Part shown: positions 1 through 55,628 of the stretch, one piece after another | Numbering within the stretch: the first letter of the stretch is position 1 | Layout: each line of letters opens with the position of its first letter | Virus record (IMG/VR): IMGVR_UViG_3300027804_002812 | Location: 224,001 to 288,000 of that record | Origin: a virus | Taxonomy: Duplodnaviria > Caudoviricetes | Direction: 5' to 3' (one strand) | DNA: 64,000 bases | The notes under the pieces: model-generated | What the model saw: the letters and a program-made list of their open reading frames with translations, nothing else | Told to the model about the DNA's origin: nothing | The model's database searches: none | Program-made: the position numbers and the translations under genes

Positions 1-1417
1 TTAGAAATAGTGTCGATTCATAGTCTCGTCTTCGGTCCAACGATGAATAGTTTATTCCAGTCTTTGCTCCAGTTGTCGGACCTTGACTTATATAAGCAGC
101 AGCTGCCTCCATATCACCATCATCAATCGCATCTTTTATTTTTTGACCGTAATCTCTGGCGGTTATAAAATATGGACCAACATTATATGAGAAACTCATC
201 AATGATGCTTTTTGTTTATCATTCAACCCATCCCAATTACTTACACCAAGTTGTTTGGCAATCAAAGGTGCAAATGTATTTTTTAATTGGTAATCCAAAG
301 TTTCCTCAGCTTCTTCTTTTGTCCATCGAGTATCTGCGGTAACATCTTCTAATTTACCATTTACCAATTTCTTACTTGACCCATATCCCCCTCTCCATGT
401 ACCTTCATCCTCAGAAGGTCTACTTGTAAAAGTTTCGAATTTTCTTATAAGTTGTTTTGACATTTCCAACCAATCACCTGTCAAAGATATTTTTTCCCCT
501 CCCACTGTTGGGTCAGATAATTTATTTATGTCCTCAGAGGTAATCCCTTTTTGTTTCAACATATCAATCAGTTTATTCAACATCTCAGGAGTCGCCTTAC
601 CCATAGGTTTTGAAGTACCTACCGCTGCCTTGGATAATCCTGTTGCCAAATCACTCAAATTACCTGAAGATATTGCAACGTGAACATGAGGAGTAATACC
701 TCCACCTTGCATGATTTTACCAATTACATCACCTTGTTTTACTGTATCACCAACTTTTAGTGGAGAATCGATGTGGGTATAAAATACGTCTGGTCCATCA
801 GTACTTTTGATTACAACTTGGTCTCCATATATTTTTTTGACTCCACTTTTAACAACATTGGAGTCCCCCCCTTTGAAAAGTTCGACAACTCCGTTGGTTA
901 GTGAATAAACTTCCGTACCTACAGGAGCTGTAATGTCCCACGCATTATTATTATACCAACCTGATGCACTGTGGGTACCTTGACCTGGTGTACCAATTAT
1001 TCCACCACCTTGTGCAACCAATTTTACGGCTTCATTCATGGATTCATCAGTTCCCAAGTTTTCTTCAGTGAACTTATTAACTGCTGCAGCAGTCTCAGGT
1101 CCAAATAATCCATCAACACCATGAATTGGCAAATCATATCCAAGAAGAATCAAACCAATTTGCATTGATTCAACTTCTTTTTTGAATTCGTAACTACCTC
1201 GTTGTTGTTCAGAGATTCCACCACTTTGTGCCGCAGATTCCAATGTACTATAAAACTCATCTACATCATCACCAACCAAATCAGCTTTAGTCGGGTCATC
1301 TTCTTTTCTGTATCCCAAGTCTTTCAAAAATTTATCAACGAATTCTTGTTCAACAATTTGATTACCATACATCATGGAATGCATTCTCACCAATTCTTCG
1401 GTCAATGTTTTTTTCAT
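1..1417 (-). CDS. Multidomain peptidoglycan hydrolase: leader + PG-binding domain + M23 peptidase + GH24-type lysozyme (3' end runs off window)
   Basis: Missing from the ORF track; translated by hand from ATG 1417. It reads MKKTLTEELVRMHSMM, then GVDGLFGPETAAAV (PG-binding), WDITAPVGTEVYS...FYTH...PHVH (M23) and LIRKFE...GGYG...SFSYNVG (phage lysozyme). Open to position 2. Confidence 0.85.
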   Translation of the reverse strand, partial: MKKTLTEELVRMHSMMYGNQIVEQEFVDKFLKDLGYRKEDDPTKADLVGDDVDEFYSTLESAAQSGGISEQQRGSYEFKKEVESMQIGLILLGYDLPIHGVDGLFGPETAAAVNKFTEENLGTDESMNEAVKLVAQGGGIIGTPGQGTHSASGWYNNNAWDITAPVGTEVYSLTNGVVELFKGGDSNVVKSGVKKIYGDQVVIKSTDGPDVFYTHIDSPLKVGDTVKQGDVIGKIMQGGGITPHVHVAISSGNLSDLATGLSKAAVGTSKPMGKATPEMLNKLIDMLKQKGITSEDINKLSDPTVGGEKISLTGDWLEMSKQLIRKFETFTSRPSEDEGTWRGGYGSSKKLVNGKLEDVTADTRWTKEEAEETLDYQLKNTFAPLIAKQLGVSNWDGLNDKQKASLMSFSYNVGPYFITARDYGQKIKDAIDDGDMEAAAAYISQGPTTGAKTGINYSSLDRRRDYESTLFL

Positions 1418-1433
1418 AACAATAAATATACAA

Positions 1434-2705
1434 TTACAAAAGTTTGTTGAACTTAGTTATTCTATCCCATTCTTTTTTGGACAATGTGATATTGTGTTTG
1501 GTAATCCCATCATAGTTATAATCTTCCATGTATTTCTCCCAAATGAACTTTTCGAATTCAGGTTTGACCTTAACAAAATTACAATTAAACGCGACCTTAT
1601 TCCATAACATGATATATGAAATTAAATTTGGATGATGTCCATAATTTGGTAAAACTTCATCGACACCAAAATTATAATCCAATTTGTTTGGACTAATTTC
1701 CACATATCCAAGTTCGGTCATGTTATCCATTGCCCACTCATCAATACCACCTCTTCTAAACCTTTCAGATTCATACATCCAAAAGTTATCGAAATTTATT
1801 TGATCCATTTTGAATTTAATCTCAGGCATAATCTTTTCGATATCAGATTCGGGATTATTGATGGGATTAAAATTTGGACTCAATACCACACGATTACTAA
1901 TAATCTCATATTGTTGTCTTCCTCCATTAAATAATGGGTGGGTAATTACTCCACTTTTGGAGATATCCCAATCTGATAAGGTGGATTGCATGAACAAAAA
2001 ATTATATCTCAACTTATTTTTCTCCAAATAATATTGGGTTCGCAATATGTTATCAAAATAAGTTTTGATTTTATTTTCCAATGGGAATTCATGTTCAATT
2101 CTTGAAATGTCATCATGGAAAAATTCATAATCAGGTCCCAACTCTGAATAGGCATTATGACTGGTATGAGCAGGAATCATATAAATCCTATCTTCGATTT
2201 TACCCCAATTAGACCCATTCTTTGAACGGAATAACTTGAAATATTCATAAAAAAATTCCAAATCTTCTTTTACATCTCCATTGGTCAGAGTAATTCCACG
2301 TTGTATCTCATAAAATTCAAATCTACACATCGGCCCAAAATCGAACCCCTTAAATTCAAACTTATTAAAATCCAAACCATAATGATGCGGGGGATGGATG
2401 GCAAACCGATGCCATTGCGACCATTCTACCAAACAAAAAATATTCTCAGGTTTAACTCCCAACTTCAACAACCCGTCGACAACATACGTCAACGAATCAG
2501 ATTGCCAATCCGAACCCTGACTACCCATAGATAAATTGATAGATACTATCTTGTTCCCCTCAATGCACAACCAATCAACTTGTCCATATTCATCTTTCAA
2601 TCTTTCACCCTCAATCAAATAATTAAAGATATTGAATACATAATCTGCAAGTCGGCCATAACTACAACCGCTCGATACAACAAACTTATATTTAGAAAAA
2701 TCCAT
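1434..2705 (-). CDS. SGNH/GDSL-like hydrolase family protein
   Basis: N-terminal SSGCSYG, QWSQWHR-like block, C-terminal GHHP. Confidence 0.55.
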   Translation of the reverse strand: MDFSKYKFVVSSGCSYGRLADYVFNIFNYLIEGERLKDEYGQVDWLCIEGNKIVSINLSMGSQGSDWQSDSLTYVVDGLLKLGVKPENIFCLVEWSQWHRFAIHPPHHYGLDFNKFEFKGFDFGPMCRFEFYEIQRGITLTNGDVKEDLEFFYEYFKLFRSKNGSNWGKIEDRIYMIPAHTSHNAYSELGPDYEFFHDDISRIEHEFPLENKIKTYFDNILRTQYYLEKNKLRYNFLFMQSTLSDWDISKSGVITHPLFNGGRQQYEIISNRVVLSPNFNPINNPESDIEKIMPEIKFKMDQINFDNFWMYESERFRRGGIDEWAMDNMTELGYVEISPNKLDYNFGVDEVLPNYGHHPNLISYIMLWNKVAFNCNFVKVKPEFEKFIWEKYMEDYNYDGITKHNITLSKKEWDRITKFNKLL

Positions 2706-2740
2706 ATCAAATTATAAAAACGAATATAATATTTATCAAT

Positions 2741-3384: not shown

Positions 3385-3403
3385 CCCACCGAAAAAAGGT
3401 GGG
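3385..3403. terminator. Bidirectional intrinsic terminator
   Basis: CCCACC-N7-GGTGGG between convergent genes, A-run on left. Confidence 0.75.
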
Positions 3404-3408
3404 AGGAT

Positions 3409-4641
3409 TTATTTATACAAGATAAAATCATTTTTCCGATCTTTCAAATCAACAACTTGAAATTCGGTTGGAGTTATAGGATAAACAAGATAATCGACCG
3501 CTTCCTTATTTTTCTTTGATTCAAATCTTTTAGCATCTGATTCAGATGATTTGACTTGAATTGTTATAGCATCCTTACCTCTTCCCATAATCAAGTCAAC
3601 GGAAAAAATCATATCAATAAAATTGCCATTTCCTCCACGATATAAGAGTTTATATCCCTTATTCTCGAATGCCTTGGAAACGTCAGTTTCCATTTGGTCT
3701 CCATATTTGGAAAATTTTGTTGAATATTTGGTGAAGTTCATTAAGTCTGTTTTACTTTCCAAATATTTTTCGAACAACTGTTCCTTGAAATCTCCTTTAT
3801 ATTTTAGAAGAACTTTTTTCATGGTTTCCGTATCAGTTGTATTAGATATTGTATCATATATTTGGGTAGAGGCTTTACTTCCAAGATTTTTGGCTTTTTC
3901 CAAATAAGTGGATAAAAGATCTGCTAAATCAGAATAGTTAGTGTTCAATTTGTTAACATAATGCCATTTTCCATTTGGGTCCAAATTACCTTCATCGTCA
4001 ACATATACCAATTTTCTATCGTATATGTATTTAACAAAATATTTATATCTCCATTGAGTTACTTTTCCATATGAAACCAATATATTCGCACCTTTAATAT
4101 TATCCTCAATATCTTTTTGTTGAATGTTAAATGTTATTCCCGACAAAATATCACCTATCACTTTTTTAAGATTTAATCCCTTTTCATCTTCAAGCCAAGA
4201 TCCGAGAGAATTTAATTTGTTATATACACTTCCACCCAACACGTTTGGGATACTCTTGTTAATTTTTTCTTCTTCTTGTCGGGAAAGAATTTTATCAACC
4301 GCCTCTCTATTCTTGTTTTGGTATCCAATGCAACCAAATGGAATTTGCAACCCACCAAATTTTGTGATTACCATACGTTTACAAGCATATGAGCTCATAT
4401 CCAACTCAAGAGCATCATCACCAATTTTAATCTCCAAATATCCCTTATTACCATACAACTGAGATAAATCATTGGCAGTTAATTTACCTTCACCTCCATC
4501 AATAACAACAGGATTGTTCACATAATAAAAATTACCCTTTGAGCCCAACGAACTACCTTTGATGACAGCAATATTTACACCCGTCTGGATGACCTCAACC
4601 AAATGATTTAACTGTTCCTCCGTAACAATGAAATTTCTCAT
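3409..4641 (-). CDS. Leader-tagged protein with C-terminal PD-(D/E)XK nuclease-like domain
   Basis: MRNFIVTEEQL leader; C-terminal E...F...GY...D...VDL...IQVK pattern. Confidence 0.6.
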   Translation of the reverse strand: MRNFIVTEEQLNHLVEVIQTGVNIAVIKGSSLGSKGNFYYVNNPVVIDGGEGKLTANDLSQLYGNKGYLEIKIGDDALELDMSSYACKRMVITKFGGLQIPFGCIGYQNKNREAVDKILSRQEEEKINKSIPNVLGGSVYNKLNSLGSWLEDEKGLNLKKVIGDILSGITFNIQQKDIEDNIKGANILVSYGKVTQWRYKYFVKYIYDRKLVYVDDEGNLDPNGKWHYVNKLNTNYSDLADLLSTYLEKAKNLGSKASTQIYDTISNTTDTETMKKVLLKYKGDFKEQLFEKYLESKTDLMNFTKYSTKFSKYGDQMETDVSKAFENKGYKLLYRGGNGNFIDMIFSVDLIMGRGKDAITIQVKSSESDAKRFESKKNKEAVDYLVYPITPTEFQVVDLKDRKNDFILYK

Positions 4642-4654
4642 ATATCAATAAATA

Positions 4655-4674: not shown

Positions 4675-4682
4675 TTGGATAA

Positions 4683-5273
4683 TTAAAATCTTAAAATTCT
4701 TTCTTTGTTTTGAATATCTACGATGTGTAAATATATATCGTCAAGGTCTTCGCCTGATTCAATTTTGTCAATAACATCTTCCTTTTTATAAAGAGTGTTT
4801 CTAACAATATAGTCAATCATCTCTTCATCTGTGATTCCTTTAGGTTTTTCAGGTTCAGGAGTACACTCGTATTCTCTATCCGATGTGCCAATGTCTTCAA
4901 TAGATAACCCCGACTCTCCAACAATTTGTTCGAACTTAGGAACCATCGTCTCATCATACCATTCAAGAATCACATGCAAAACATATGACTTTCTTATGCT
5001 CAATAATTCTGAAAGAGTATCAACAAGACCTTTGGATACCATCAAATATCCTTGGTCAAATCTACCATCCTCAAAATAATAAATTGCGGTAATTGTTTCT
5101 TTTCCATCAAAACACCAATCCTCACGAAGATTTCCGTAATTACGTGCCTTCGGAATGACCTTACGTTTACCATTACCAATATATTGATTCATATATTTGA
5201 CAATAAAATTACTAATGGACTGACTACTCTTGTTAAGTCTTCTATATTGTTCTTCTGTTAGTATATATTTCAT
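4683..5273 (-). CDS. Leader-tagged hypothetical protein
   Basis: MKYILTEEQY leader; 196-aa ORF. Confidence 0.8.
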   Translation of the reverse strand: MKYILTEEQYRRLNKSSQSISNFIVKYMNQYIGNGKRKVIPKARNYGNLREDWCFDGKETITAIYYFEDGRFDQGYLMVSKGLVDTLSELLSIRKSYVLHVILEWYDETMVPKFEQIVGESGLSIEDIGTSDREYECTPEPEKPKGITDEEMIDYIVRNTLYKKEDVIDKIESGEDLDDIYLHIVDIQNKERILRF

Positions 5274-5274: not shown

Positions 5275-5610
5275 TTAACTTTTTTTTATTTTGAACTCAG
5301 CCCAAGTGCTATAAGGAACAACTTGAGTACGTTCAACTCTCAGATTATATTTGCTTTCGAAATACTTTCCAAAAAAGTGACGAGCAGTACCTACGTCTAC
5401 CGAAAACATAGACATAACGTCCTTAATTAAATCCGTTAAAATGTATAAATCGTCAGTGAAGTTATGCCCTATTATCCCGTGTTCTTCACCAGGAAACGCA
5501 AAGACAGTATCAAGATACCTACCTCTCTTTTTCTTAATCCCCTTCAATCTACTATCCAAGTATTTGAATACAATACTCTCTAATCTACTTTCCGTGATGA
5601 TGTATTTCAT
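5275..5610 (-). CDS. Leader-tagged paralog family A protein
   Basis: MKYIITESRLE start at 5610; shares FKYLDSKL..G..SD.VF..PG...MFS....GKY.ESRYNL with neighbours. Confidence 0.85.
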   Translation of the reverse strand: MKYIITESRLESIVFKYLDSRLKGIKKKRGRYLDTVFAFPGEEHGIIGHNFTDDLYILTDLIKDVMSMFSVDVGTARHFFGKYFESKYNLRVERTQVVPYSTWAEFKIKKS

Positions 5611-5611
5611 A

Positions 5612-5992
5612 TTATTCTTTATCAAGTATTAAGTAAGTTCTGTCAAATCTATCATTATCAACCACACTACCAAACATACTTTTAATCCTCGGAGCATAAT
5701 CCACTTTCATGTTGTATCTACTTTCAAGATATTTCCCAATTACCTCAAGAACATCACCCTCTTTCATAGAAAACATAGTTTGTATTTCCTCAAAGAATGG
5801 AAAATAAATGTGTAAATAATTATCCCCTTTTTTATGATACTTATTCACCGCAAATAACCCAACATCTTTACCAGGAACGGAAAAAACAAAATCCGAAAAT
5901 TTCCCTTTCTTTATAACGGTTCCTTCCAGCTTACTATCCAAAAATTTGAATAAAACTTTTTCTAATTTACTTTCCGTAATGATGTATTTCAT
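5612..5992 (-). CDS. Leader-tagged paralog family A protein
   Basis: MKYIITESKLE; alignable by eye to flanking paralogs. Confidence 0.85.
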   Translation of the reverse strand: MKYIITESKLEKVLFKFLDSKLEGTVIKKGKFSDFVFSVPGKDVGLFAVNKYHKKGDNYLHIYFPFFEEIQTMFSMKEGDVLEVIGKYLESRYNMKVDYAPRIKSMFGSVVDNDRFDRTYLILDKE

Positions 5993-6010
5993 ATCTTATA
6001 AATATCCCAA

Positions 6011-6169
6011 TCATTTATTACATTCACCCTTCTTTCCGCATACCTCACAGACATTCCCCTGTGAAGCACAAGTTCCCTTAAACTCACCTCCCTTAAGAAA
6101 TATCAATCTTACGGACATCAATATAAAAAATAAAGAAATAAATCCAATGGTTATTAGTAGTGTTATCAT
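6011..6169 (-). CDS. Small membrane protein with four-Cys tail (NqrM-like / Bacteroidota small membrane protein)
   Basis: Hand-translated 52 aa: MITLLITIGFISLFFILMSVRLIFLKGGEFKGTCASQGNVCEVCGKKGECNK; ATGA overlap with 6166..6528. Confidence 0.65.
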   Translation of the reverse strand: MITLLITIGFISLFFILMSVRLIFLKGGEFKGTCASQGNVCEVCGKKGECNK

Positions 6170-6528
6170 ATCCCATCTACTTTCAATGCTGAAAACTCAA
6201 AACCACAATTCCAAGTTGCAGAAGTGATATTCAAATTATATCTATTTTCAATATACCTTGCAATTGTTTTCAAAGATTCTTCCGATTGTAGAGAGAACAT
6301 GTTTTCCACCTCACGACCCAATAATAGAAAAACATATAATTTTCCTCCTTTATCAGTTTTTTCCCATCCCAATATTCCAAGTTCTTTATCTCCGTTAGGT
6401 GCCATTTTAGGAGAGATAAAAACAACATCCGAAAATTTTCCCTTCACAAGTTCGACACCTTCCAATTTACTATCCAAGAATTTGAATATGATATTTTCTA
6501 ACCGACTTTCCGTGATGATGTATTTCAT
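6166..6528 (-). CDS. Leader-tagged paralog family A protein
   Basis: MKYIITESRLEN; paralog of 5275/5612/6530. Confidence 0.85.
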   Translation of the reverse strand: MKYIITESRLENIIFKFLDSKLEGVELVKGKFSDVVFISPKMAPNGDKELGILGWEKTDKGGKLYVFLLLGREVENMFSLQSEESLKTIARYIENRYNLNITSATWNCGFEFSALKVDGI

Positions 6529-6529
6529 A

Positions 6530-6865
6530 TTAATAACTATCTACTTTTAACGGTTTCAAATTGAAAATACGCAAGTACTTGTTGGCATCCACCTTCAAAT
6601 TGTATCTACTTTCAACATACCTTCCGATAACATCAAGAACATCAGATTCATCCATTGAAAACACATTTTTAACTTCATCAACAATTTCGTAATAAGAGAA
6701 TAATTGATTAGATTTTTTCCATCCCATCAATCCAAATTCTTCACCAGGAAACACAAAGACAATATCAGAATAATCTCCTTTCTTGAGTTCAATACCCTCC
6801 AACTTCTCATTCAAAAATTTGAATATTAAGTTTTCCAATCTGCTTTCCGTGATGATGTATCTCAT
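6530..6865 (-). CDS. Leader-tagged paralog family A protein
   Basis: Start revised to MRYIITESRLEN at 6865. Confidence 0.85.
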   Translation of the reverse strand: MRYIITESRLENLIFKFLNEKLEGIELKKGDYSDIVFVFPGEEFGLMGWKKSNQLFSYYEIVDEVKNVFSMDESDVLDVIGRYVESRYNLKVDANKYLRIFNLKPLKVDSY

Positions 6866-6887
6866 AACTTCTTCTTTGAATAGGGGG

Positions 6888-7205
6888 TTAATAATATATT
6901 GAGTAATAAACCGCCTTAATGGGATTATCAGGATATTTTTTTTCAAACCATCTTTGAATTAAATCTTCAGTCTCAGAAAAATTCCTGTTGAACAATCCAC
7001 TAATTGTTAAGAACAAATGCTGACTAACTCCCAAGTGTTGGTCAAGAAACTGAAATATCATATTTTCATTTTTATCAACAAGGTCGAAGTCCTCCTCCGT
7101 CCCAATTGTATGACTTGAATCTCTTTCGATAAGTTCCCCCACCACTAAAGTAATATACTTATCAACCAATTTTACAAGTCTATCTTCTGAAATAATATAA
7201 TCCAT
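6888..7205 (-). CDS. Leader-tagged divergent family A protein
   Basis: MDYIISEDRL leader; LGVSQ.LF..IS.LF...F.E...LI..WFE pattern. Confidence 0.75.
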   Translation of the reverse strand: MDYIISEDRLVKLVDKYITLVVGELIERDSSHTIGTEEDFDLVDKNENMIFQFLDQHLGVSQHLFLTISGLFNRNFSETEDLIQRWFEKKYPDNPIKAVYYSIYY

Positions 7206-7279: not shown

Positions 7280-7909
7280 TTACTTACCAGTTCTTGAAGT
7301 ATATCCTGTTGACGGTCTTTCCCCTTTTGCTGTCCGTATTAAAGCCTCTCGTTCTAGTTCCTCTTTTTCACCCGGTTTCAACGGTGGATAGGGTGTATCG
7401 TCTGAGGGTTGGAAGTTCGTTACCAAATTTCTAATAGGTCTCATAATTCTAGCCCATTCAGATTCATTAGAAATATCAGAACTCAAATCCGTGTATAAAT
7501 CAACATTGTAACTACTTTTATAAGCCTTTACCAATGCACAAAATTCACTAAATGATTTCAAATTTTCAAATGCTTTATAGATTAATTCTTCATTCGTTCC
7601 AACCCCTTGTACCGCATCTCTTATCATATCAGCAAACTGATTCACACGACCCCTATCTCTGTAAGAAGAATTTTCTTTGTTACATATATCACAAAACTCC
7701 TTAACTTTTTTGTCTGAATCTCCAAATCCAGTTAGGACTTGATTCAGCATACCCATCAAGTCTTGTTCATTAACCAAAGGTTTCACATCCCCAAGTTTCG
7801 AATTTAACAATTTAGAGAAACTCTCAGTCATAACCTTCATCCCTCCTGTATGTTGTTCACGGATGGAGTTCTTCTCCTGTTCCGATAAATCGTTTAATAT
7901 ATGTTTCAT
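7280..7909 (-). CDS. Leader-tagged protein with single annexin-like repeat
   Basis: DAVQGVGTNEELIYKAF...KAYKSSYNVDLYTDLSSDIS matches the annexin GxGT-DE...Y...L..DL..(E/D) repeat. Confidence 0.7.
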   Translation of the reverse strand: MKHILNDLSEQEKNSIREQHTGGMKVMTESFSKLLNSKLGDVKPLVNEQDLMGMLNQVLTGFGDSDKKVKEFCDICNKENSSYRDRGRVNQFADMIRDAVQGVGTNEELIYKAFENLKSFSEFCALVKAYKSSYNVDLYTDLSSDISNESEWARIMRPIRNLVTNFQPSDDTPYPPLKPGEKEELEREALIRTAKGERPSTGYTSRTGK

Positions 7910-8007: not shown

Positions 8008-8030
8008 ACCCCACCTTTATGGGGTGGGGT
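8008..8030 (-). terminator. CCCCACC-family terminator
   Basis: ACCCCACC-TTTATGG-GGTGGGGT. Confidence 0.8.
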
Positions 8031-8049: not shown

Positions 8050-8676
8050 TTATGCTAAGTTAGATTGTTGTGGTTTGCCGGTACTAGCATATGTTCCTTT
8101 TGGAACTGATGATCCACCAGAACCTACAGTACAAAAATCTTTTTTCAACTTATCAGTAAAATATTTTGAATATAGAGCAATCCCCTGAGGACCCGTAAAA
8201 AGTTTGGTGTCAAATGGGATTAATTGGTCGGGTTTATCACATGAGTAGCTCAAAAAATAAACATGGTCACTATTACCAACTCGGTAGTCTGTTCCATCAC
8301 TTAGTTTAACCTCTTCGTATTTATATGCAATAACTATTTTTCCAAGTTTATCTTTAGAGTCACCTAACCCACTATACATATAATCAATTCTAATTTGTCT
8401 TTTGAACTTTCTATTTTCACGATCAGTGTAAAGATTTACCGTATTTCCCTTGAAGGATTCAAATTTTTCTTCACTAAACGCATTGACTTTGTCTTGAGGA
8501 GTATCACCAGAGATTTCAGGTATCGCTTTGGACATCGGAGGGTTAATTTTGGTTTTTGTTCCAGGGTTTTCACCAGTTTGAGTCACCGTTGTTTGAACTT
8601 GCTCACTCATAAGTCGTTTCTCTAATCTCTGATTGACTTCTTGAATGTGTCTGATTTTACTATAACTTCTATTCAT
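8050..8676 (-). CDS. Leader-tagged hypothetical protein
   Basis: Start revised to MNRSYSKIRHIQEVNQRLEKRL, shared with 10591..11283. Confidence 0.8.
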   Translation of the reverse strand: MNRSYSKIRHIQEVNQRLEKRLMSEQVQTTVTQTGENPGTKTKINPPMSKAIPEISGDTPQDKVNAFSEEKFESFKGNTVNLYTDRENRKFKRQIRIDYMYSGLGDSKDKLGKIVIAYKYEEVKLSDGTDYRVGNSDHVYFLSYSCDKPDQLIPFDTKLFTGPQGIALYSKYFTDKLKKDFCTVGSGGSSVPKGTYASTGKPQQSNLA

Positions 8677-8763: not shown

Positions 8764-9168
8764 TTATTGAGGTTGTTGAGGTGCTTGTGCTCTTGCAATT
8801 GCTTGTGCCAAAGCATCAAGTGGTGCCAATACATTGGAAATTGCCGGTAAATATGGTTTGAACGATTCCGTATTTTGATATTGAGAAACAGCTTTTTTAA
8901 TAGTATCAGGAAGATTACCAAGTTGTCTTCTGATTTTCAAAATGTCATAAATTGCATTTATTTCATTTTGTTGTGCCTGACTTGTTGCTCGGTTTGTTTG
9001 TCTCAAATCTTGTCTTGCATCTCTTCTTGCGTCCCTTGCATCTCGAACACCTGCTCTAGCGGCATCAAGTCCTTGTTGTGCGGCTATTTGTTGACTAGTT
9101 TGTTCTTGTAATGTTTTTTTAACCAATCTTGCCAAATCAGCTTCGGTCATTCTTATAATTTTTCCCAT
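8764..9168 (-). CDS. Leader-tagged helical Q/A/R-rich protein
   Basis: MGKIIRMTEADLARLVKK..LQEQ leader; DARRDARQ low-complexity helix. Confidence 0.8.
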   Translation of the reverse strand: MGKIIRMTEADLARLVKKTLQEQTSQQIAAQQGLDAARAGVRDARDARRDARQDLRQTNRATSQAQQNEINAIYDILKIRRQLGNLPDTIKKAVSQYQNTESFKPYLPAISNVLAPLDALAQAIARAQAPQQPQ

Positions 9169-9903: not shown

Positions 9904-10581
9904 CTAATTTTTATCACTTAAGGCAACCCTGAGTTTATTTACATCTTCGTCCTCTTTTTTGGCATCGAAATAGTTTTTTGTAATATCATATCCAACACTA
10001 TATCCTACACCCACTCCCAAGTATTTTAATCCTGTTTTACCCAAATTTGCTAATGATGTTTTTATAGATGAAGATAATGGTTTTGATGCAGCTTGTTGAG
10101 CCAAAGTTTTGACGTGAGTGTCCAAAGAACTCTTAACAAAATCGGTTCCTTTTTTTATACCCTCAATGACGGCCAACTCTACTGAATCAGTAATTTTATC
10201 ACCTTTAGCTATTTTTTCAGCTAAGGCAGACATTCCTTTAACTCCTAGTTGTTTGATTGCAGGAATTCTATTTATAATAGCTAAAGCACCAGGCATCAAA
10301 GAAAATATTGCCACCAAACCTGCGGTTTTCGTGTCACCTTCTTTGTAATATAATGAGGCGTCCCCCAATCCGATTCCTGCTGATAAGAATGGACCAACGA
10401 AAGGTACAAAAGAACTTGCAAAGGCCAAAAGAGGTAAAAAGAAATGAGCATCTTTCACCATTAGTTCGCCCATCTTCATAATTGCCTCTGGTTTTTGGTA
10501 GTCATAACCACCTACAGGCCCTAAACCTATTGGTTGCTCAATGAGTAAATTATATTGACGTTCGGAAATAATATATTTCAT
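9904..10581 (-). CDS. Leader-tagged protein with hydrophobic Gly/Ala-rich helices (pre-toxin-TG-like)
   Basis: MKYIISERQY..LLIEQ leader; SFVPFVGPFLSAGIGLGDASLYYKEGD..AGL..IFSLMPG. Confidence 0.65.
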   Translation of the reverse strand: MKYIISERQYNLLIEQPIGLGPVGGYDYQKPEAIMKMGELMVKDAHFFLPLLAFASSFVPFVGPFLSAGIGLGDASLYYKEGDTKTAGLVAIFSLMPGALAIINRIPAIKQLGVKGMSALAEKIAKGDKITDSVELAVIEGIKKGTDFVKSSLDTHVKTLAQQAASKPLSSSIKTSLANLGKTGLKYLGVGVGYSVGYDITKNYFDAKKEDEDVNKLRVALSDKN

Positions 10582-12398: not shown

Positions 12399-12420
12399 AT
12401 CAATAAATATTCAACATTCC

Positions 12421-12474: not shown

Positions 12475-12483
12475 AATAAAAAT

Positions 12484-12878: not shown

Positions 12879-12906
12879 AATGTTTTTTGTTTATAGATAA
12901 ATAGTC

Positions 12907-12945
12907 AAAAAAGGGGTTGGGGATTGGAACGACCGAAGGGAGAAG
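12907..12945. repeat. Intergenic element copy 3
   Basis: GGGGTTGGGGATT-GGAA-CGACCGAAGGGAG. Confidence 0.9.
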
Positions 12946-12950
12946 ACGGA

Positions 12951-21325: not shown

Positions 21326-21329
21326 TTGG

Positions 21330-45750: not shown

Positions 45751-47091
45751 CTAATTTTCACTTTTGTCCATATATTCCAAATCCCACATGTTAGGGCCTA
45801 TTGGATCGCCTTTTTCTTCTATTTTCTTAGGTACTCTTACATTGTCACATCCTTTTAGATTCAAAAACATAAGATTCGGTAAATCAGCAACACAATCAGG
45901 TATTGTTCTTAATTCAGGATTTCTAGTAATCGCTAAAAAATTCAAATTTTTAAGATTACATATTGAATCAGGTATTTTTGAGAAAGTAATATTGTCTGTA
46001 AGAATATTAGTCAAGTTTTGAAGCTTACCAATATCTTCCGGTAATTCTACATGTATAGGGTCTTTACTGTCTCTGTTTTGAATTAGAATTCTTTCCAAAG
46101 ATTTAGGTAAACTGTCCATTAAGTCCTCTAAACCATATAATGCAATGAATTTACCAACAGAACCTGAACTTAAACTCTCAATTTTTAATTCTTTACCTCC
46201 GAGTACAATGCCTTTAGCAAATTCAGGTTTGAAGAAAGGTTTCAACTCGGACATAGGCCCATTCAATAGTTGAACTAAATCTTGTTGTCTGTCATCCTTA
46301 TCCATGAACTGGTTAGATTGAAAATGGAATTGATATCTTTCCTTAGGAAGTCCTGTCATTGGACTGACATCGGTATCATTAGGATTAAAAATTACATATA
46401 GAGGTCCATCTTTTATGTATCTGTCGAACCAGCTAGCACCTGGTGCTGAAGTACACCATCTCGTTTCTTGGTTGTTTCCACCATAGAAACAAGCCGCTTC
46501 CTTACCTACCGCTCCTTTATCCTCAATTTCTACAACTCTCCAATTTTCCCCGTCATAAACCAACTTTGCGCCTGGATGAACAGGTGCAGATTTTCTTTCA
46601 GCCTTTGTTGTAGTCGCTAATGTTAAATCAAAATCTTTAACCGCGTCATAAAGTTGATCAGGTGTCAACTTATTGATGTCTCTCATTTCTTTAGGAAGTC
46701 GTCCTTTGAATCTATCAAACTTTTTAAGATCATCAGTAACCTTGTAAAGGTCTTCCATGAAAACATCCTTAGCGCGTTTTACATCTTTTTCATAGGTATA
46801 ATCACCAGGATTTGTTTCAGTTTTTGGCATCAAATAATGCTTCACCAGCCAAGGAACATAACTTCCAGCTTTAATCTTACCCAATTCCTCAGGAGTGGCA
46901 GTTTCAATGTCCACGTTGTTTAATCTAGTTGTTGGGTCTGCTAATACCAAATCAACAAACTCTTTCTTTGAAAGTTTAGGTCTTAACTTATTACCCTCTT
47001 TGTCCTTACCAGATTTAGTTAAAGCGTTCATCAAAACCTCAAATCTTGACTGTTCAACTATGATTGACTTTAATAACGAAGTAAATTTCAT
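45751..47091 (-). CDS. Leader-tagged PcfJ-related domain + leucine-rich-repeat protein
   Basis: MKFTSLLKSIIVEQ; AACFYGG...TRWCTS; LPEDIGKLQNL, IPDSICNLKNL, IPDCVADLPNL LRRs. Confidence 0.75.
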   Translation of the reverse strand: MKFTSLLKSIIVEQSRFEVLMNALTKSGKDKEGNKLRPKLSKKEFVDLVLADPTTRLNNVDIETATPEELGKIKAGSYVPWLVKHYLMPKTETNPGDYTYEKDVKRAKDVFMEDLYKVTDDLKKFDRFKGRLPKEMRDINKLTPDQLYDAVKDFDLTLATTTKAERKSAPVHPGAKLVYDGENWRVVEIEDKGAVGKEAACFYGGNNQETRWCTSAPGASWFDRYIKDGPLYVIFNPNDTDVSPMTGLPKERYQFHFQSNQFMDKDDRQQDLVQLLNGPMSELKPFFKPEFAKGIVLGGKELKIESLSSGSVGKFIALYGLEDLMDSLPKSLERILIQNRDSKDPIHVELPEDIGKLQNLTNILTDNITFSKIPDSICNLKNLNFLAITRNPELRTIPDCVADLPNLMFLNLKGCDNVRVPKKIEEKGDPIGPNMWDLEYMDKSEN

Positions 47092-51632: not shown

Positions 51633-53093
51633 TTATTGTGTTTTTCTGTTGTATCCGATAAGATTTTTCATCTTTTCCATCTCTTCAGAAATAACTTTAG
51701 ACTTTTTGTTTTCAGTTGACTCAAGTTGGTTCATTATTTTCTGTGCCTTTGCCGTAGAACCTTTCTTCAATCCACCTGATTGTGTTTTGTCACCAGCAAT
51801 ATCTACAGGTTGTGGTTGTCTCTTGTATGAAACATTCATTTGTTCCGCTCCGTACAAATTATCGTCAAAATTCTTTTTGAATCTGTCGCCAACTTTTTCA
51901 CTTCTTTTAGAAACGTTTCCTAATGCTTTACCATCTTTACCTGTTACAGCATTTCCGTTTTTAGAATCACCTTTGATTTGCTTCTCAATCATCTCGTCAT
52001 CAGGTTTGATTTCATCATAAACTAAATTAGTCATTCCAGGATATGCGAATGCCTCGATATACTCTTCTACTGCATCGGATGGATGATATTTCTTTTCCTT
52101 GTGGTCTTTTTCCATGTCGTAATTACTTTGAGGGAAATCGTCAGGGTTTTCGTCATATCCTCCATCACCTGATACCATGTCCTTCATGTAATCCTTCATT
52201 TTCTTAATTACCTCTTTAGCGTAATCATCATTTTCTTTTTTATTAAGACCCAAAACCTTATCAGTTTTTTTCAAACCTTCAGGACTCTTGTTAGAAATAT
52301 TTGATTTTTCGTCTTTATCTTTAACTGATTGTTCCAACACGATTTGTTCTATTAGGTCAATCAATTCATCCTCAGTCAATTTCAAAGAAGATTTTCTATT
52401 TTCTTTAACCTTGTATGTTTTTCCATCAACTTCAAAGGAATCTTTACCAGATTTCTTCGCGTCAGCTAATGCCCCACTAAATGCATTCCCTTCTTCAGTT
52501 TCAGCCTCTCCCATATCTCTTGGAGTTCTAACTCTGAATGGCTTTCCATACCTTTTTTTATATAAGTCAAAGAATTTTTTACCCTCTTCACCTTGTGCAA
52601 ATAATCTTTGTTTTCCACCATACTTAGAATCAAATGAATCGAAATCGTCAAACTCTTCTTCATCATAATCAAAGTCAAAATCTCCAGTATATTGTCTATC
52701 GTCTTCGTCATAAAATCCGTGTTCATCATCAAATGAACCAATCATTTTTGGTCTACGAGTCACATGAAACTTATCTCTACCCATTTCCATACCCATATCT
52801 TCTTTTTCGAAGTCATCTCCACTCTCACTTTCATCATCGTAGAAATAAAACTCATCAACTTCTTTTTTGTGATTTTTAGTATCTCTAAGTTTTTTGAAGT
52901 CAGCAGCTGTGATTTTACCTTTTGGTTCTGCAACATCAATCTTTTTTTGGCCACCTTTAAGTTGTTCGTCAACTTCAATCTCAGTCCATTCTCCTTCTTC
53001 TAATTGTTCAGAAATTTGTTTTGCTTTATTTTCAATTTCCTCATTCAATATTTTGGAAACTAATTTGTCTATGTTGATTTTGAAATTACTCAT
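51633..53093 (-). CDS. Acidic putative internal head/scaffold-like protein with multiple xxE motifs
   Basis: KILNEE, LKLTEDELIDLIEQIVLEQ, ISEEMEKMKNLI; GNAFSGAL..AKK.G..SFEVDGKTY and KGKITAADFKKLR modules. Confidence 0.55.
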   Translation of the reverse strand: MSNFKINIDKLVSKILNEEIENKAKQISEQLEEGEWTEIEVDEQLKGGQKKIDVAEPKGKITAADFKKLRDTKNHKKEVDEFYFYDDESESGDDFEKEDMGMEMGRDKFHVTRRPKMIGSFDDEHGFYDEDDRQYTGDFDFDYDEEEFDDFDSFDSKYGGKQRLFAQGEEGKKFFDLYKKRYGKPFRVRTPRDMGEAETEEGNAFSGALADAKKSGKDSFEVDGKTYKVKENRKSSLKLTEDELIDLIEQIVLEQSVKDKDEKSNISNKSPEGLKKTDKVLGLNKKENDDYAKEVIKKMKDYMKDMVSGDGGYDENPDDFPQSNYDMEKDHKEKKYHPSDAVEEYIEAFAYPGMTNLVYDEIKPDDEMIEKQIKGDSKNGNAVTGKDGKALGNVSKRSEKVGDRFKKNFDDNLYGAEQMNVSYKRQPQPVDIAGDKTQSGGLKKGSTAKAQKIMNQLESTENKKSKVISEEMEKMKNLIGYNRKTQ

Positions 53094-54355: not shown

Positions 54356-54780
54356 TAGTTACCTATTAATAAAAACGTGGTTAATCCCAACCCTGCAAAA
54401 GTACCCAACTTCCATAAAAAAGTTTGAGCTCTTTGTCCCTTTAATTCTTTATGTAAACTATCCGTTAACTCTTTGGATAATTTAAGTTGCTCGTCCTTTT
54501 TTCCAATGATGAACTGATTATTCTCATCTTTTTGTGTCAAAATGGTAATGATATTATCTTTTTGTGACTCTCTTTCCTCCACTTTTTGAAGTTTGAGTTT
54601 CATAAATCCCATTTCTTCCTTCAATCCATCATATTTCAACAAATCTTGATAGACCAATCTGGCAACTCTAACGCTTAATACTACTTTGGAAGAATCTGTT
54701 GTCTCAGTTTGAATAACGGTCTGCGAAAAGCTTCTCGAGCTCAACATTACCAATAAAACCAACACTAATAACTTTTTCAT
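54355..54780 (-). CDS. Signal peptide + coiled coil + C-terminal TM protein (spanin-like candidate)
   Basis: MKKLLVLVLLVMLSSRSFSQ; C-terminal FLWKLGTFAGLGLTTFLLI; overlaps 54704..55054. Confidence 0.5.
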   Translation of the reverse strand: MKKLLVLVLLVMLSSRSFSQTVIQTETTDSSKVVLSVRVARLVYQDLLKYDGLKEEMGFMKLKLQKVEERESQKDNIITILTQKDENNQFIIGKKDEQLKLSKELTDSLHKELKGQRAQTFLWKLGTFAGLGLTTFLLIGN

Positions 54781-55054
54781 CAGTTTGTTCTTTTACCATT
54801 TCTATATTGTTATCGATTTCATGAATTTCTTTGGTTATAGAATTTACTGTTTCTTTTATTACCAAAACTTTTTCATCCATCTCTTTATTGACAGATTGAG
54901 CAGAATCAATTTCAACTTGGATATTCTCAATTTTTTCTTTATAGGATTTAACATCTGTTTTAATCCCATTTGTATTCAAAATATTCCATAACGCTAACAC
55001 TAATACTATCACTAGTAATATGTTTTGTTTGTTATTGATTATTTTCTCTCTCAT
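54704..55054 (-). CDS. N-terminal TM + coiled-coil protein (i-spanin-like candidate)
   Basis: ILLVIVLVLALWNIL then a long heptad helix. Confidence 0.5.
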   Translation of the reverse strand: MREKIINNKQNILLVIVLVLALWNILNTNGIKTDVKSYKEKIENIQVEIDSAQSVNKEMDEKVLVIKETVNSITKEIHEIDNNIEMVKEQTDEKVISVGFIGNVELEKLFADRYSN

Positions 55055-55055
55055 C

Positions 55056-55628
55056 TTAAACTGGTGATTCCGATGTCTTCTTTCTATTCGCCAAAACTTT
55101 ACCCCACTTGGACTTAAATTTTTGGTAGAATTGTTGAAGTTTATTTATTAAAGTTAAAAACTCCTCATCGACTTTTATCATTTCTCCATTGATGTATATT
55201 CCACTGTTCTCTCCAATTGTTAGGATGAAATCAATGTCTTCATCAATAAGTTTCCCCGACCACTCAACGCTATTTTTATATACATTCAATGTGTTGAAAT
55301 CAACCAAGTCGGAAACCTCCTCAACGAATTCGTCCATCGTCTCTTGGAAAGCAACTTTCTCATCTGTGGTGATATCCAAATCACTTCTATCTTTACCGTG
55401 AAGTTTCAAAATACCACCAGAAATTCTGTATTTTTGGGACTTGTCTTTTGGAGTTGGTTCTTCACCAGCTTCAATATCAGTCTCAGCAGTATCATACTCA
55501 ACATCTTGTTGGATCCTACTTTCAACATCTTTAGCAACGTTTATTTGTCCGTCTTGCTCAAAGAGTAATTTGGACTTCTTTAATAGAGATTTAATCTCAT
55601 CGTACCTTTCGTTATGCAAATTGCTCAT
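55056..55628 (-). CDS. Leader-like tagged hypothetical protein
   Basis: IKSLLKKSKLLFEQ N-terminus. Confidence 0.7.
   Translation of the reverse strand: MSNLHNERYDEIKSLLKKSKLLFEQDGQINVAKDVESRIQQDVEYDTAETDIEAGEEPTPKDKSQKYRISGGILKLHGKDRSDLDITTDEKVAFQETMDEFVEEVSDLVDFNTLNVYKNSVEWSGKLIDEDIDFILTIGENSGIYINGEMIKVDEEFLTLINKLQQFYQKFKSKWGKVLANRKKTSESPV

What the first reader, a model, noticed from the sequence alone, without database searches (positions are those of the whole stretch)
1..55628. Interchangeable N-terminal (I/L/V)xE leaders on about 29 unrelated proteins: candidate virion cargo-tagging system
Seen in sequence, five leader types are fused to unrelated bodies. Type I M[KRD]YI[IL][TS]E (3409, 4683, 5275, 5612, 6166, 6530, 6888, 9904, 19703, 20351). 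Type II MKK[VI][VI]RLTE.[DE]L (8764, 11352, 11853, 15618, 34970). Type III MNLQEDI.RIKE.M (12513, 12951, 20643, 20981, 21330, 23850; related 1417). Type IV MNRSYSKIRHIQE (8050, 10591). Type V IL(K/N)E / IIVEQ (7280, 24568, 33570, 45751, 51633). Many have a second xxE-Q about 15-60 aa in (IVEQ, LVNEQ, LMSEQ, LQEQ, LIEQ, INEQ, LFEQ). Established: T4 internal proteins carry a short capsid-targeting leader removed by the prohead protease gp21 after (I/L)xE. Inference: these leaders load a large, swappable repertoire of proteins (hydrolase, nuclease, annexin, ParB-like, DHH, LRR) into the head for injection into the host.
Basis: partly seen in the sequence, partly recalled or inferred. Interest (0 to 1): 0.88.

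Follow-up and report, generated by a model that had tools for sequence, protein, structure and literature searches.

The report
Swappable capsid-targeting-like leaders on phage proteins
An uncultured 326-kb freshwater T4-like giant phage puts a few short, interchangeable N-terminal tags, each ending in the cut site of its head-maturation protease, on dozens of unrelated late proteins (several of them cell-wall enzymes), most likely to load them into the capsid for injection, as T4 does with its three internal proteins; packaging itself is untested.

Summary
The core observation holds. Leader types I-IV are real, N-terminal and far beyond chance.

- **Not all of it holds.** Seven of the ten type I genes are one paralog family. 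"Type V" is a bare (I/L/V)xE match, which 37.5% of all ORFs have.
- **The window** has about 25 leader genes on about 17 unrelated bodies. I add a further type (VI).
The genome encodes a T4 gp21-type prohead protease (Peptidase_S77). Its gp23-like capsid protein aligns T4's LTE|A maturation site with LINE|A.
- **In IMG/VR,** leaders II, III and IV head 93, 77 and 46 distinct proteins, falling into 80 (with this genome's ten), 37 and 33 body clusters. Conservation collapses right after a hydrophobic-x-Glu: E22, roughly E18 (less sharply), E25.
- **Leaders swap.** The same body occurs under different leader types in related phages, joined exactly at that Glu.
- **Expression.** Leader genes carry the late-promoter-like motif of the head and tail genes. 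Identical RNA-library contigs from lake metatranscriptomes lie on several of them.
- **Cargo.** It includes peptidoglycan-binding and hydrolysing domains without signal peptides.

Best reading (about 0.6): a T4-CTS-like capsid-loading propeptide system, greatly expanded. No virion data exist. This scan has reported similar leaders on other uncultured T4-like phages.

The parts
1..1417 (-). 473-aa protein (runs 4 nt off the window). N-terminus MKKTLTEELVRMHSMM...QIVEQ is leader-like, a type II/III hybrid. It is followed by PG_binding_1, Peptidase_M23 and phage lysozyme domains, with no signal peptide. TATTTAT motif at 1428-1422.
3409..4641 (-). Type I leader (MRNFIVTE) on a 410-aa body with weak PD-(D/E)XK nuclease-like leads. 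A relative of this body carries a type IV leader in L274.
4683..5273 (-). Type I leader (MKYILTE) on an unrelated 196-aa body.
5275..7205 (-). Five type I genes (5275-5610, 5612-5992, 6166-6528, 6530-6865, 6888-7205). All start M(K/R/D)YII(T/S)E and all are full-length paralogs of one ~105-126 aa family. A 52-aa ORF at 6011-6169 lies between them.
7280..7909 (-). Annexin-like 209-aa protein with the type VI N-terminal motif (LSEQEKNSIREQH, 9 aa after Met) and a later PLVNEQ.
8050..8676 (-). Type IV leader (MNRSYSKIRHIQE.NQRLEKRLMSE|Q) on a 208-aa body.
8764..9168 (-). Type II leader (MGKIIRMTEADLARLVKKTLQE|Q) on a 134-aa basic body.
9904..10581 (-). Type I leader (MKYIISE...LLIEQ) on an unrelated 225-aa body.
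10591..11283 (-). Type IV leader on a 230-aa body unrelated to that of 8050-8676.
11352..11834 (-). Type II leader on a 160-aa body. In the AF2 model the leader is a low-confidence helix (residues 9-20), the junction (16-27) has pLDDT below 50, and the body is a confident alpha/beta fold of unknown kind.
11853..12398 (-). Type II leader on a 181-aa very acidic body (DUF6576 match).
12513..13592 (-). Two type III leader genes (12513-12878, 12951-13592) starting MNL(Q/N)ENI.R(I/L)(H/K)E, with unrelated bodies.
15618..15905 (-). Type II leader on a 95-aa body. The same body carries a type I leader in a related phage (L214).
19703..20635 (+). Two type I genes of the small paralog family (19703-20014, 20351-20635), with a non-leader ORF between them.
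20643..22292 (-). Three type III leader genes (20643-20984, 20981-21325, 21330-22292) starting MNL(Q/L)EDI.RIKEVMGI.E, with related bodies.
23850..24566 (-). Type III leader (MNLQEDIHRIKEVMEQ) on an unrelated 238-aa body.
34970..35332 (-). Type II leader on a 120-aa body with a weak PG_binding_1 match. An orthologue with the same leader is in L061.
24568..24993 (-). 'Type V' candidate (MRDLIRKILKEE). It resembles one head-module N-terminus (genome 134789) but is not recurrent beyond chance, so it is doubtful.
33570..34973 (-). DHH-family protein. Its 'type V' leader is not supported (bare I-L-K-E only).
45751..47091 (-). LRR protein with SIIVEQ near the N-terminus and TATTTAT at 47115-47109. 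It is a late gene; processing is possible but rests on the motif only.
51633..53093 (-). 486-aa protein with KILNEE and QISEQ and TATTTAT at 53117-53111. Evidence is at motif level only.
12403..12409 (-). Example of the late-promoter-like motif TATTTAT (often GATATTTAT[T/A]), which lies 5-25 nt before the ATG. Other copies are at 4654-4648, 6004-5998, 7217-7211, 7931-7925, 8698-8692, 9192-9186, 11305-11299, 12903-12897, 13603-13597, 15916-15910, 19692-19698(+) and 22303-22297.
8008..8030 (-). Example of the GC-rich hairpin plus T-run terminators that separate the leader-gene cassettes. Others are at 3385-3403, 4654-4675, 7232-7255, 8717-8737, 9213-9232, 9871-9895, 11323-11344, 12484-12503 and 15592-15613.
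   Evidence: 23 found vs 8.7 +/- 3.3 in shuffles

Best explanation
The leaders are removable N-terminal propeptides that work like the capsid targeting sequence (CTS) of T4 internal proteins.

Proposed mechanism:
- A late-expressed protein carries an 8-25 residue amphipathic leader. Four types are well supported and probably six exist.
- The leader docks the protein onto the scaffolding core while the prohead assembles.
- The gp21-type prohead protease then cuts after the hydrophobic-x-Glu that ends the leader: ITE7 (type I), LTE9 and VI.E22 (type II), IKE12 and GI.E18 (type III), IQE13 and (L/M).E25 (type IV).
- The mature body stays in the head and is ejected into the host with the DNA.
- The leader types are functionally equivalent address labels, so bodies can be exchanged by recombination at the leader/body junction. 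This gives each phage of the clade its own repertoire. Part of the cargo acts on peptidoglycan; the rest is probably host take-over or anti-defence.

Shown here: the leaders, their modularity, the swapping, their boundary, the protease and the MCP site, the shared promoter-like motif, and presence in RNA libraries.

Inferred: binding to the core, cleavage, packaging and ejection.
For: 1. **Protease and capsid protein.** Peptidase_S77 lies at genome 140410-141126 (E 1e-22). It keeps the ELNHP His, the GxSSRGxGS Ser, a conserved Asp and T4's N-terminal L-I-E. A gp23-type MCP (E 1e-62) aligns T4's FLTE|AEIGG with HLINE|ASS here and IVSE|AN in phage immuto. A T4-like (I/L/V)-x-E|small specificity is therefore expected.

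2. **Sharp leader boundary in IMG/VR.**
- Type II: 93 distinct proteins; information is 3-4 bits up to E22 (90/93), then about 0.4 bits.
- Type IV: 46 proteins; conserved to (L/M/I)-x-E25.
- Type III: 77 proteins; conserved to G-(L/I/V)-x-E18, a less sharp boundary (E18 in 48/77).

3. **Modularity.** 103 type II proteins fall into 80 body clusters, type III into 37 and type IV into 33.

4. **Swapping at the Glu**.
- This genome's type II gene at 153602 reads ..VIAE|TGTDSKV; L250 has a type IV leader ..VITE|TGTDSKV on a 95% identical body.
- L030 reads ..NLLE|QFNMDD; L267 reads ..MLFE|QFNMDD.
- L037 is type II; L285 has a type IV leader placed in front of a retained RVIKE|Q, with bodies 98% identical over 140 aa.
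- Type I/II and I/IV pairs also exist.

5. **Selection acts on the peptide.** Leader codons differ at synonymous sites; Thr8 uses all four ACN codons.

6. **Late-motif association.**
- TATTTAT lies within 45 nt upstream of 18/32 leader genes against 65/349 other ORFs (OR 5.6, p 8e-6). Most of the remainder sit close behind such a gene on the same strand.
- The motif also precedes the scaffold, protease and portal genes and the tail sheath and head-tail adaptor genes.

7. **Co-occurrence.** 8/8 near-complete and 18/25 of all leader-bearing IMG/VR records have Peptidase_S77.

8. **Cargo that needs delivery from outside.**
- No signal peptide is evident at the N-termini of leader or leader-like proteins in this genome (by eye). 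They carry PG_binding_1 (four clear matches, one of them on the M23 + lysozyme protein, plus one weak), OmpA-like and M23 + lysozyme domains.
- In relatives they carry Tae4, Tlde1/YkuD and PG_binding_1.

9. **Structure model.** AF2 shows a detached leader helix and a disordered junction at residues 16-27, before a folded body.

10. **Presence in RNA libraries.** Contigs with 0 mismatches lie on leader genes in 4 lake metatranscriptome runs.

11. **Precedent.** In T4 a 10-residue CTS is sufficient for packaging; residues 8 and 10 govern processing; T-even internal proteins are diverse apart from the CTS (PMC9026906, PMC3012670, PMC5694885).
Against: - There is no virion proteome, no N-terminal sequencing and no cultured member of the clade. 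tblastn of two leaders found nothing in 50,697 phage records.
- The leaders are not homologous to T4's MKTYQEFIAE and are up to 2.5 times longer. The HMMs find none in T4.
- The nearest isolate, Flavobacterium phage immuto, has the same head module but no such leaders. The system is therefore an add-on of one clade, and its co-occurrence with the protease is phylogenetically confounded.
- A bare (I/L/V)xE is common: 37.5% of ORFs have one.
- Type II/IV leaders are basic and type III is acidic. That is awkward if all bind one surface.
- Type I is mostly one paralog family whose conservation runs on past ITE.
- The late class of the TATTTAT motif is inferred from the genes it precedes, not measured.
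- The phage also encodes ClpP and a ClpB/C-like ATPase, which allows a degron reading.
Confidence: 0.6

Rival explanations
1. The leaders are docking or assembly helices for another common partner or another virion site (tail lumen, baseplate, neck, or a non-structural hub). The proteins are not head cargo, and the leader need not be cleaved.
For: - The AF2 model shows an amphipathic helix.
- Virion-associated peptidoglycan hydrolases are usually tail proteins (general knowledge), and several leader proteins carry PG domains.
- Late expression would fit any virion component.
Against: - It does not explain why conservation stops exactly at hydrophobic-x-Glu in three leader types.
- It does not explain why swap junctions sit at that Glu, nor why L285 kept the RVIKE|Q tail behind a new leader.
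- Dozens of unrelated small proteins per genome are hard to place on a tail of fixed architecture.
Confidence: 0.15
2. The leaders are degradation or adaptor tags read by the phage's own ClpP plus ClpB/C-like unfoldase (or by a host protease), timing the removal of a set of late proteins.
For: The genome encodes ClpP (E 1.5e-55) and a double AAA+ Clp ATPase. The ATPase gene lies next to two type II genes. N-terminal tags on unrelated proteins are what a degron looks like.
Against: - A degron needs no conserved C-terminal boundary with Glu.
- It does not explain the match to the MCP maturation site.
- It does not explain signal-less periplasm-acting domains.
- No reason is apparent for four or more equivalent degrons.
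Confidence: 0.07
3. The shared 5' ends have no protein function. They are kept alike because they are the homology arms of mobile promoter-gene-terminator cassettes that shuffle between phages, as described for the promoter/stem-loop cassettes of T4-type hyperplastic regions (from my own knowledge; not checked here).
For: The cassette layout is real: terminator hairpin, promoter-like motif, gene. RNA contigs from co-occurring relatives share only the roughly 45-nt leader-coding piece.
Against: Leaders diverge freely at synonymous sites while the amino acids stay fixed. Conservation follows an amphipathic-helix pattern and ends at a codon-exact Glu. Recombination may well use the leaders, but that does not explain the constraint at the peptide level.
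Confidence: 0.05
4. The leaders are recognition sequences for a modifying enzyme (RiPP-like logic), as was argued for another shared phage tag in this scan (e1-127136).
For: The architecture is formally the same: one leader, many bodies. The genome has radical-SAM-looking genes at about 17-19 kb (by eye only).
Against: No candidate modifying enzyme lies near the leader genes; those genes are more than 200 kb away in a glycan island. The bodies are folded proteins of 70-520 aa, not peptides.
Confidence: 0.03

Closest known systems
Phage T4 capsid targeting sequence (CTS) of internal proteins IPI, IPII, IPIII (and the propeptides of Alt, gp24, gp67, gp68), removed by prohead protease gp21
   Same: - A short N-terminal leader on otherwise unrelated proteins, ending in (L/I)-x-E.
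- A gp21-family protease and a gp23-type MCP with a homologous maturation site in the same genome.
- Late genes.
- Cargo that varies between related phages.
Sources: PMC9026906, PMC3012670, PMC5694885.
   Different: - No sequence similarity to MKTYQEFIAE.
- Leaders of up to 18-25 aa, often with two candidate cut sites.
- At least four interchangeable leader classes in one genome.
- About 35-40 tagged genes per genome instead of 3-5.
- In IMG/VR, 80 (with this genome's ten), 37 and 33 body clusters for leader types II, III and IV.
- Cargo includes cell-wall enzymes.
- Nothing has been shown experimentally.
Processed inner-body / ejection proteins of giant phages phiKZ, 201phi2-1 and SPN3US (proteases gp175/gp245, MEROPS S80)
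   Same: A giant phage in which many head proteins carry N-terminal propeptides cut after Glu by a gp21-related protease. The propeptides often have several cut sites, and some paralogs share identical N-termini (PMC5694885, PMC9026906).
   Different: There the motif is (S/A/G)-x-E and the protease is the diverged S80 family. Those propeptides are long and mostly protein-specific, not a few portable leaders. Here the protease is a canonical S77 and the motif is hydrophobic-x-E.
Phage P1 Dar system: N-terminal capsid targeting signal of DarB
   Same: An N-terminal ~30-residue signal is sufficient to send a reporter into the capsid, and the cargo is anti-restriction protein injected with the DNA (PMC9024508).
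   Different: It involves one or a few proteins and stepwise assembly dependent on other Dar proteins. There is no family of shared leaders and no gp21-type removal of the tag.
T6SS periplasm-acting effectors (Tae4 amidase, Tlde1 L,D-transpeptidase family)
   Same: Leader-bearing proteins of related phages carry Tae4 and Tlde1/YkuD domains. Like T6SS effectors they have no evident Sec signal (not checked for these relatives) and would need injection by a contractile machine to reach peptidoglycan.
   Different: The delivery device would be a phage head and tail, and the address label is an N-terminal cleavable leader rather than a PAAR/VgrG/Hcp adaptor. The domain matches are single hits.

Membership tests
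T4-type CTS / prohead-protease propeptide system | A gp21-family (Peptidase_S77) prohead protease with its catalytic residues in the same genome | tested here: met
   (E 9.7e-23, above the cut-off). The alignment with T4 gp21 keeps the ELNHP His, the SSRG Ser, an Asp and the N-terminal LIE.
T4-type CTS / prohead-protease propeptide system | A gp23-type major capsid protein whose propeptide is cut at (L/I)-x-E | tested here: met
   T4 FLTE|A aligns with [HF]LINE|[AS] in this clade and IVSE|A in immuto. Cleavage itself is inferred by homology.
T4-type CTS / prohead-protease propeptide system | A gp22-like scaffolding core to which leaders bind | tested here: inconclusive
   A 523-aa, extremely acidic ORF lies at genome 138501-140072 between the protease and MCP genes, in the gp22 position. 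It has no Pfam match. Binding was not testable.
T4-type CTS / prohead-protease propeptide system | A short N-terminal leader shared by otherwise unrelated proteins | tested here: met
   For type I it is only partly met (nine of 14 are paralogs).
T4-type CTS / prohead-protease propeptide system | The leader ends at the protease consensus, with Glu at P1 and Leu/Ile at P3 | tested here: met
   Conservation boundaries fall at E22 (II), E25 (IV) and, less sharply, about E18 (III), and at E7 (I). Swap junctions sit at the Glu.
T4-type CTS / prohead-protease propeptide system | Sequence relatedness of the leader to T4's CTS (MKTYQEFIAE) | tested here: not met
   The leader HMMs find nothing in the T4 genome. 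The motifs differ, so this is an analogue, not a homologue, of the T4 CTS.
T4-type CTS / prohead-protease propeptide system | Expression together with the head genes (late) | tested here: inconclusive
   A promoter-like TATTTAT motif is shared with the head and tail genes, and RNA-library contigs lie on leader genes. No timing data exist.
T4-type CTS / prohead-protease propeptide system | The protein is found inside the mature head with the leader removed, and is ejected on infection | not testable with these tools
   There is no cultured relative and no proteome.
phiKZ-type (S80) processed head proteins | An (S/A/G)-x-E cleavage motif and an S80 protease | tested here: not met
   P3 is I/L/V/M in all leader types and in the MCP site. 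The protease scores as S77.

The most novel reading that the evidence does not exclude
A clade of abundant freshwater giant phages uses its capsid as a general effector-delivery device.
- Several equivalent, recombination-portable address leaders load dozens of proteins per virion.
- These are drawn from a pool of well over a hundred unrelated families, including T6SS-like peptidoglycan effectors.
- The different leader classes may set position, copy number or order of ejection.
- The leader/cleavage-site junction would then be a natural plug-and-play site for cargo exchange, far beyond what T4's three internal proteins suggested.
Probability: 0.25. Interest if true: 0.8.

Novelty: new variant of a known kind. 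Interest (0 to 1): 0.62.

Why it matters
If the leaders work as read here, the following would follow.
- T4's capsid-targeting trick is not a curiosity of three internal proteins. It would be a scalable addressing system that environmental giant phages use for large, fast-changing arsenals of injected proteins.
- It would give a sequence rule for predicting injected effectors in uncultured phages: leader plus hydrophobic-x-Glu, a late motif, and a gp21-type protease.
- It would give a catalogue of more than a hundred unknown cargo families to mine for anti-defence and host take-over functions.
- It would point to peptidoglycan-acting cargo delivered from the head.
- It would supply new, longer and mutually exchangeable packaging tags for engineering protein delivery by phages.

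The swap junctions (same body, different leader) are direct evidence from natural sequences that the leader types are interchangeable modules, which makes functional equivalence likely.

Tried and rejected
- **Cultured relatives.** Megablast of 20 kb of the window against 50,697 phage records found no match. tblastn of a type II and a type VI leader also found none. No cultured relative with a proteome could be used.
- **Databases.** Pfam and PHROGs on 20 leader proteins were almost blank. The 5.8-billion-protein search returned only metagenomic proteins, nearly all 'hypothetical', with no Pfam domain.
- **Fold of a cargo body.** AF2 plus Foldseek against PDB and AFDB for the 160-aa type II protein gave no informative fold match. 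Protein-atlas look-ups gave only a weak nuclease lead for the 410-aa type I protein.
- **Type I search.** A narrower one mostly recovered the paralog family.
- **Type V.** Rejected as a leader class on base rates and on the IMG/VR count.
- **Protease N-terminus.** MKNLRILEASEL looks like a type II leader by eye, but it did not appear among the type II HMM's reported hits (E up to 50), so I dropped the idea.
- **Body charge.** This was not decisive. Type II and IV bodies are mostly basic, like T4 internal proteins, but type I and III bodies are mostly acidic.
- **RNA genes.** Rfam and tRNA scans of the window found nothing.
- **Sigma-70 promoters.** Promoter-like sites are not enriched in the leader region (53 vs 57.5 expected).

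Full report
**What the DNA is.** The window is bases 224,001-288,000 of a single 326,291-bp IMG/VR virus record with 33.7% G+C, which CheckV rates as complete.
- It has no close relative among 50,697 cultured phage records.
- The only DNA-level hit is part of the capsid gene of Flavobacterium phage vB_FspM_immuto.
- Its DNA is near-identical in freshwater and lake metagenomes from at least 19 studies.
- It is an uncultured freshwater jumbo phage. The host is probably Bacteroidota: by eye, the start regions printed show no Shine-Dalgarno sequence, and the nearest isolate infects Flavobacterium.

**The observation.**
At the other ends the ORFs do start with the stated motifs.
- An all-against-all comparison of N-termini in the whole genome recovers the same classes.
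- Genome-wide counts are 14 type I, 10 type II, 6 type III and 2 type IV.
- I also find four proteins with a further N-terminal motif, x-E-(E/Q)-E-(K/R)-N-x-I-x-x-L-H, placed 7-9 residues after the Met (type VI). One of them is the annexin-like gene at 7280-7909.
- The 473-aa M23 + lysozyme protein at 1-1417 starts with a type II/III hybrid.
- A type II HMM scores the nine members in the scored ORF set at E 1e-10 to 1e-15, and every other N-terminus in the genome at E 0.13 or worse. The tenth member, at 239905, matches the A6 HMM at E 1.4e-11.

**Are the bodies unrelated?** I compared residues 31 onward by BLAST.
- All ten type II bodies are unrelated to each other, and so are the two type IV bodies.
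- Type III is three related plus three unrelated bodies.
- Nine type I genes are full-length paralogs of one ~100-126 aa family, and five have unrelated bodies.
- 'Type V' does not stand. 37.5% of all ORFs of at least 90 aa have (I/L/V)xE in their first 25 residues, against 32% in an internal control. The one specific type V-like N-terminus recurs in IMG/VR only at about the rate my rough estimate gives for chance.
- The 'second xxE-Q' has a basis. Hydrophobic-x-EQ in the first 70 residues is three times as frequent as internally and is enriched in late-motif genes (p 0.001). Often it is the leader's own end.

**The protease and its likely specificity.**
- The genome has a T4-type head module: portal, two small ORFs, Peptidase_S77 protease (E 1e-22), a 523-aa hyper-acidic ORF in the scaffold position, and a gp23-type capsid protein.
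- Aligned with T4 gp21, the protease keeps the His, Ser and Asp blocks and even the N-terminal L-I-E.
- Aligned with T4 gp23, the known maturation site FLTE|AEIGG falls on HLINE|ASS. Across ten clade members it reads [HF]LINE|[AS], and in immuto IVSE|AN.
- I take this as good indirect evidence for a hydrophobic-x-Glu | small-residue specificity, as in T4 (PMC9026906, PMC5694885).

**The leaders across the clade.**
- A degenerate-pattern scan of IMG/VR found more than 585 stretches for type II, of which 371 were confirmed. It found 289/83 for type III, 142/62 for type IV and 335/58 for type I.
- In 93 distinct type II proteins, column information stays at 3-4 bits up to position 22 (Glu in 90/93). 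It drops to 1.6 bits at position 23 (Q/S/N/G) and to about 0.4 bits beyond.
- Type IV is conserved through (L/M/I)-x-E25.
- Type III is conserved through G-(L/I/V)-x-E18, a less sharp boundary with E18 in 48/77.
- Part of the conservation inside the leaders is ascertainment, because hits were confirmed by tblastn. The position of the collapse and the Glu are not.
- Bodies are highly diverse. 103 type II proteins fall into 80 BLAST clusters, 77 type III proteins into 37 and 46 type IV proteins into 33.
- Each of nine related complete genomes (257-326 kb) has 6-17 type II, 0-6 type III and 0-2 type IV leaders. Nearly all matches start at or within a few positions of the model's start. T4 and immuto have none.
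- All 8 near-complete and 18 of 25 leader-bearing records have Peptidase_S77. Because these records form one clade, the link is phylogenetically confounded.

**Interchangeability, shown directly.** Comparing all bodies across leader types gave pairs with the same body under different leaders.
- This genome's type II gene at 153602 reads ...KKVIAE|TGTDSKV. L250 reads ...ENVITE|TGTDSKV behind a type IV leader, and the bodies are 95% identical.
- L030 (type II, ...NLLE|QFNMDD) pairs with L267 (type IV, ...RRMLFE|QFNMDD) at 83% identity.
- L037 and L029 (type II, ...RRVIKE|QGVRTLV) pair with L285, where a complete type IV leader sits in front of a retained RVIKE|Q. The bodies are 95-98% identical over 140 aa.
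- The window's type II gene at 15618-15905 shares its body with a type I gene (L214). The 410-aa type I gene at 3409-4641 shares its body with a type IV gene (L274).
- In the three high-identity pairs the junctions fall at the hydrophobic-x-Glu. This is what one expects if 'leader up to Glu' is the functional module and the mature protein starts after it.

**Level of selection and expression.**
- Leader codons vary freely at synonymous sites; Thr8 of type II uses ACA, ACC, ACG and ACT. The constraint is therefore on the peptide.
- Most leader genes, or the first gene of their short runs, are preceded by a terminator hairpin and then (G)ATATTTAT(T/A) 5-25 nt before the ATG.
- The same strand-specific motif precedes the scaffold, protease, portal, tail sheath and head-tail adaptor genes and several giant structural ORFs.
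- It lies upstream of 18/32 leader genes against 65/349 other ORFs (OR 5.6, p 8e-6). I read it as the late promoter; this is an inference.
- In four lake metatranscriptome runs, contigs with no mismatch lie on leader genes at 7.3-9.3, 11.5-13.2 and 20.6-21.2 kb. None lie on the plus-strand genes at 17.7-19.6 kb.
- Some contigs match only the roughly 45-nt leader-coding piece and then run into unlike sequence, as expected from other leader genes of co-occurring relatives.
- Contigs cannot show strand or ends, and RNA libraries can hold DNA.

**Cargo.** Most bodies have no known domain. The recognisable ones point to the cell wall.
- In this genome: M23 + lysozyme + PG_binding_1 (window 1-1417), three further PG_binding_1 proteins with leader-like N-termini, an OmpA-like protein encoded right after the capsid gene, and a weak PG_binding_1 on the type II gene at 34970-35332.
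- Among 34 longer leader proteins of relatives: Tae4, Tlde1/YkuD, PG_binding_1, collagen and GYF.
- No signal peptide is evident at the N-termini printed for this genome's proteins (by eye). Delivery from the virion is one simple route to the periplasm; release at lysis is the other.
- The 410-aa type I protein has weak PD-(D/E)XK nuclease leads.
- An AF2 model of the 160-aa type II protein shows a low-confidence leader helix, a disordered junction around residue 22 and a confident body of unknown fold.

**Interpretation.**
- The best-supported mechanism is a T4-CTS-like system. Late-made proteins dock by their leader onto the assembling core, the gp21-type protease removes the leader at hydrophobic-x-Glu, and the bodies are ejected with the DNA. 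I put this at about 0.6.
- The rivals are another docking site in the virion (0.15), a tag for the phage's own ClpP/ClpB-C pair (0.07; genes confirmed), pure cassette-recombination homology (0.05) and a leader for a modifying enzyme (0.03, prompted by e1-127136). Each fails to explain the Glu-exact boundary together with the MCP site.
- The leaders are analogues, not homologues, of T4's CTS.

**Novelty.**
- The principle is known from T4, where reviews already suggest that the CTS lets T4-like phages package varied proteins (PMC9026906). Partial parallels exist in phiKZ/SPN3US and P1 (PMC5694885, PMC9024508).
- I found no paper describing these leaders or a multi-leader repertoire of this size.
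- This scan has reported comparable CTS-like leaders on other uncultured T4-like phages, so the theme is recurrent.
- New here: several co-existing leader classes, direct natural swap junctions, and peptidoglycan-acting cargo.

Noticed in passing
window 12399-12512, 12879-12950, 13593-13670 (minus-strand sense): A repeated intergenic element (..CTCCCTTCGGTCGTTC[C/T]AATCCCCAACCCCTTTTTT..) sits between the end of one gene and the TATTTAT motif of the next, in front of several leader genes. Other first-stage notes on this genome describe the same element (e1-5338625, e1-5335785).
   Followed up: partly
whole genome; e.g. window 12403-12409, 15910-15916, 22297-22303: The late-promoter-like motif often ends only 4-6 nt before the ATG, and by eye the printed upstream sequences show no Shine-Dalgarno. 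Many late transcripts may therefore be leaderless or nearly so.
   Followed up: no
genome 173781-174479 (L241:3781-4479) and 154213-156225 (L005:4213-6225): The phage encodes its own ClpP (E 1.5e-55) and a 670-aa double-AAA+ ClpB/ClpC-like ATPase. The ATPase gene lies next to two type II leader genes.
   Followed up: partly
window 57274-58071 and 48328-49242: A complete sigma-70-family factor (regions 1.2, 2 and 4) and a full DnaJ (J domain, zinc finger, C-terminal domain) are encoded in the right half of the window.
   Followed up: partly
genome 135472-136584 (L004:5472-6584), directly after the capsid gene: A 370-aa protein with an OmpA-type peptidoglycan-binding domain, no signal peptide, a type VI-like N-terminus (..SNEERNRILSLHE...LMSEQ) and its own GATATTTAT motif. 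It is a candidate virion protein that anchors to the cell wall.
   Followed up: partly
genome 147553-148467 (L004:17553-18467): A 304-aa head-module protein carries KLTESQINILHSRLISE at residues 21-38. This resembles the core of the type II leader but is placed internally, and it is not significant by HMM (E 0.93).
   Followed up: no
window 2741-3376, 23186-23869; genome 168027, 218971, 219675, 220315, 222384: Several paralogous proteins begin with a GDSL/SGNH-hydrolase-like (F/I)GDSF block. They are scattered around the leader-gene region.
   Followed up: no
window 16000-17800: A stretch with higher G+C (38.8%) and no convincing long ORF. It has no tRNA or Rfam match. Another first-stage note places DnaA-box-like repeats near here.
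   Followed up: no
window 8638-8684 and 9117-9163 (loose ends): Metatranscriptome contigs match only the leader-coding ~45 nt of the type IV and type II genes and continue into unrelated sequence on both sides. Other leader genes of co-occurring relatives are thus also present in RNA libraries.
   Followed up: partly
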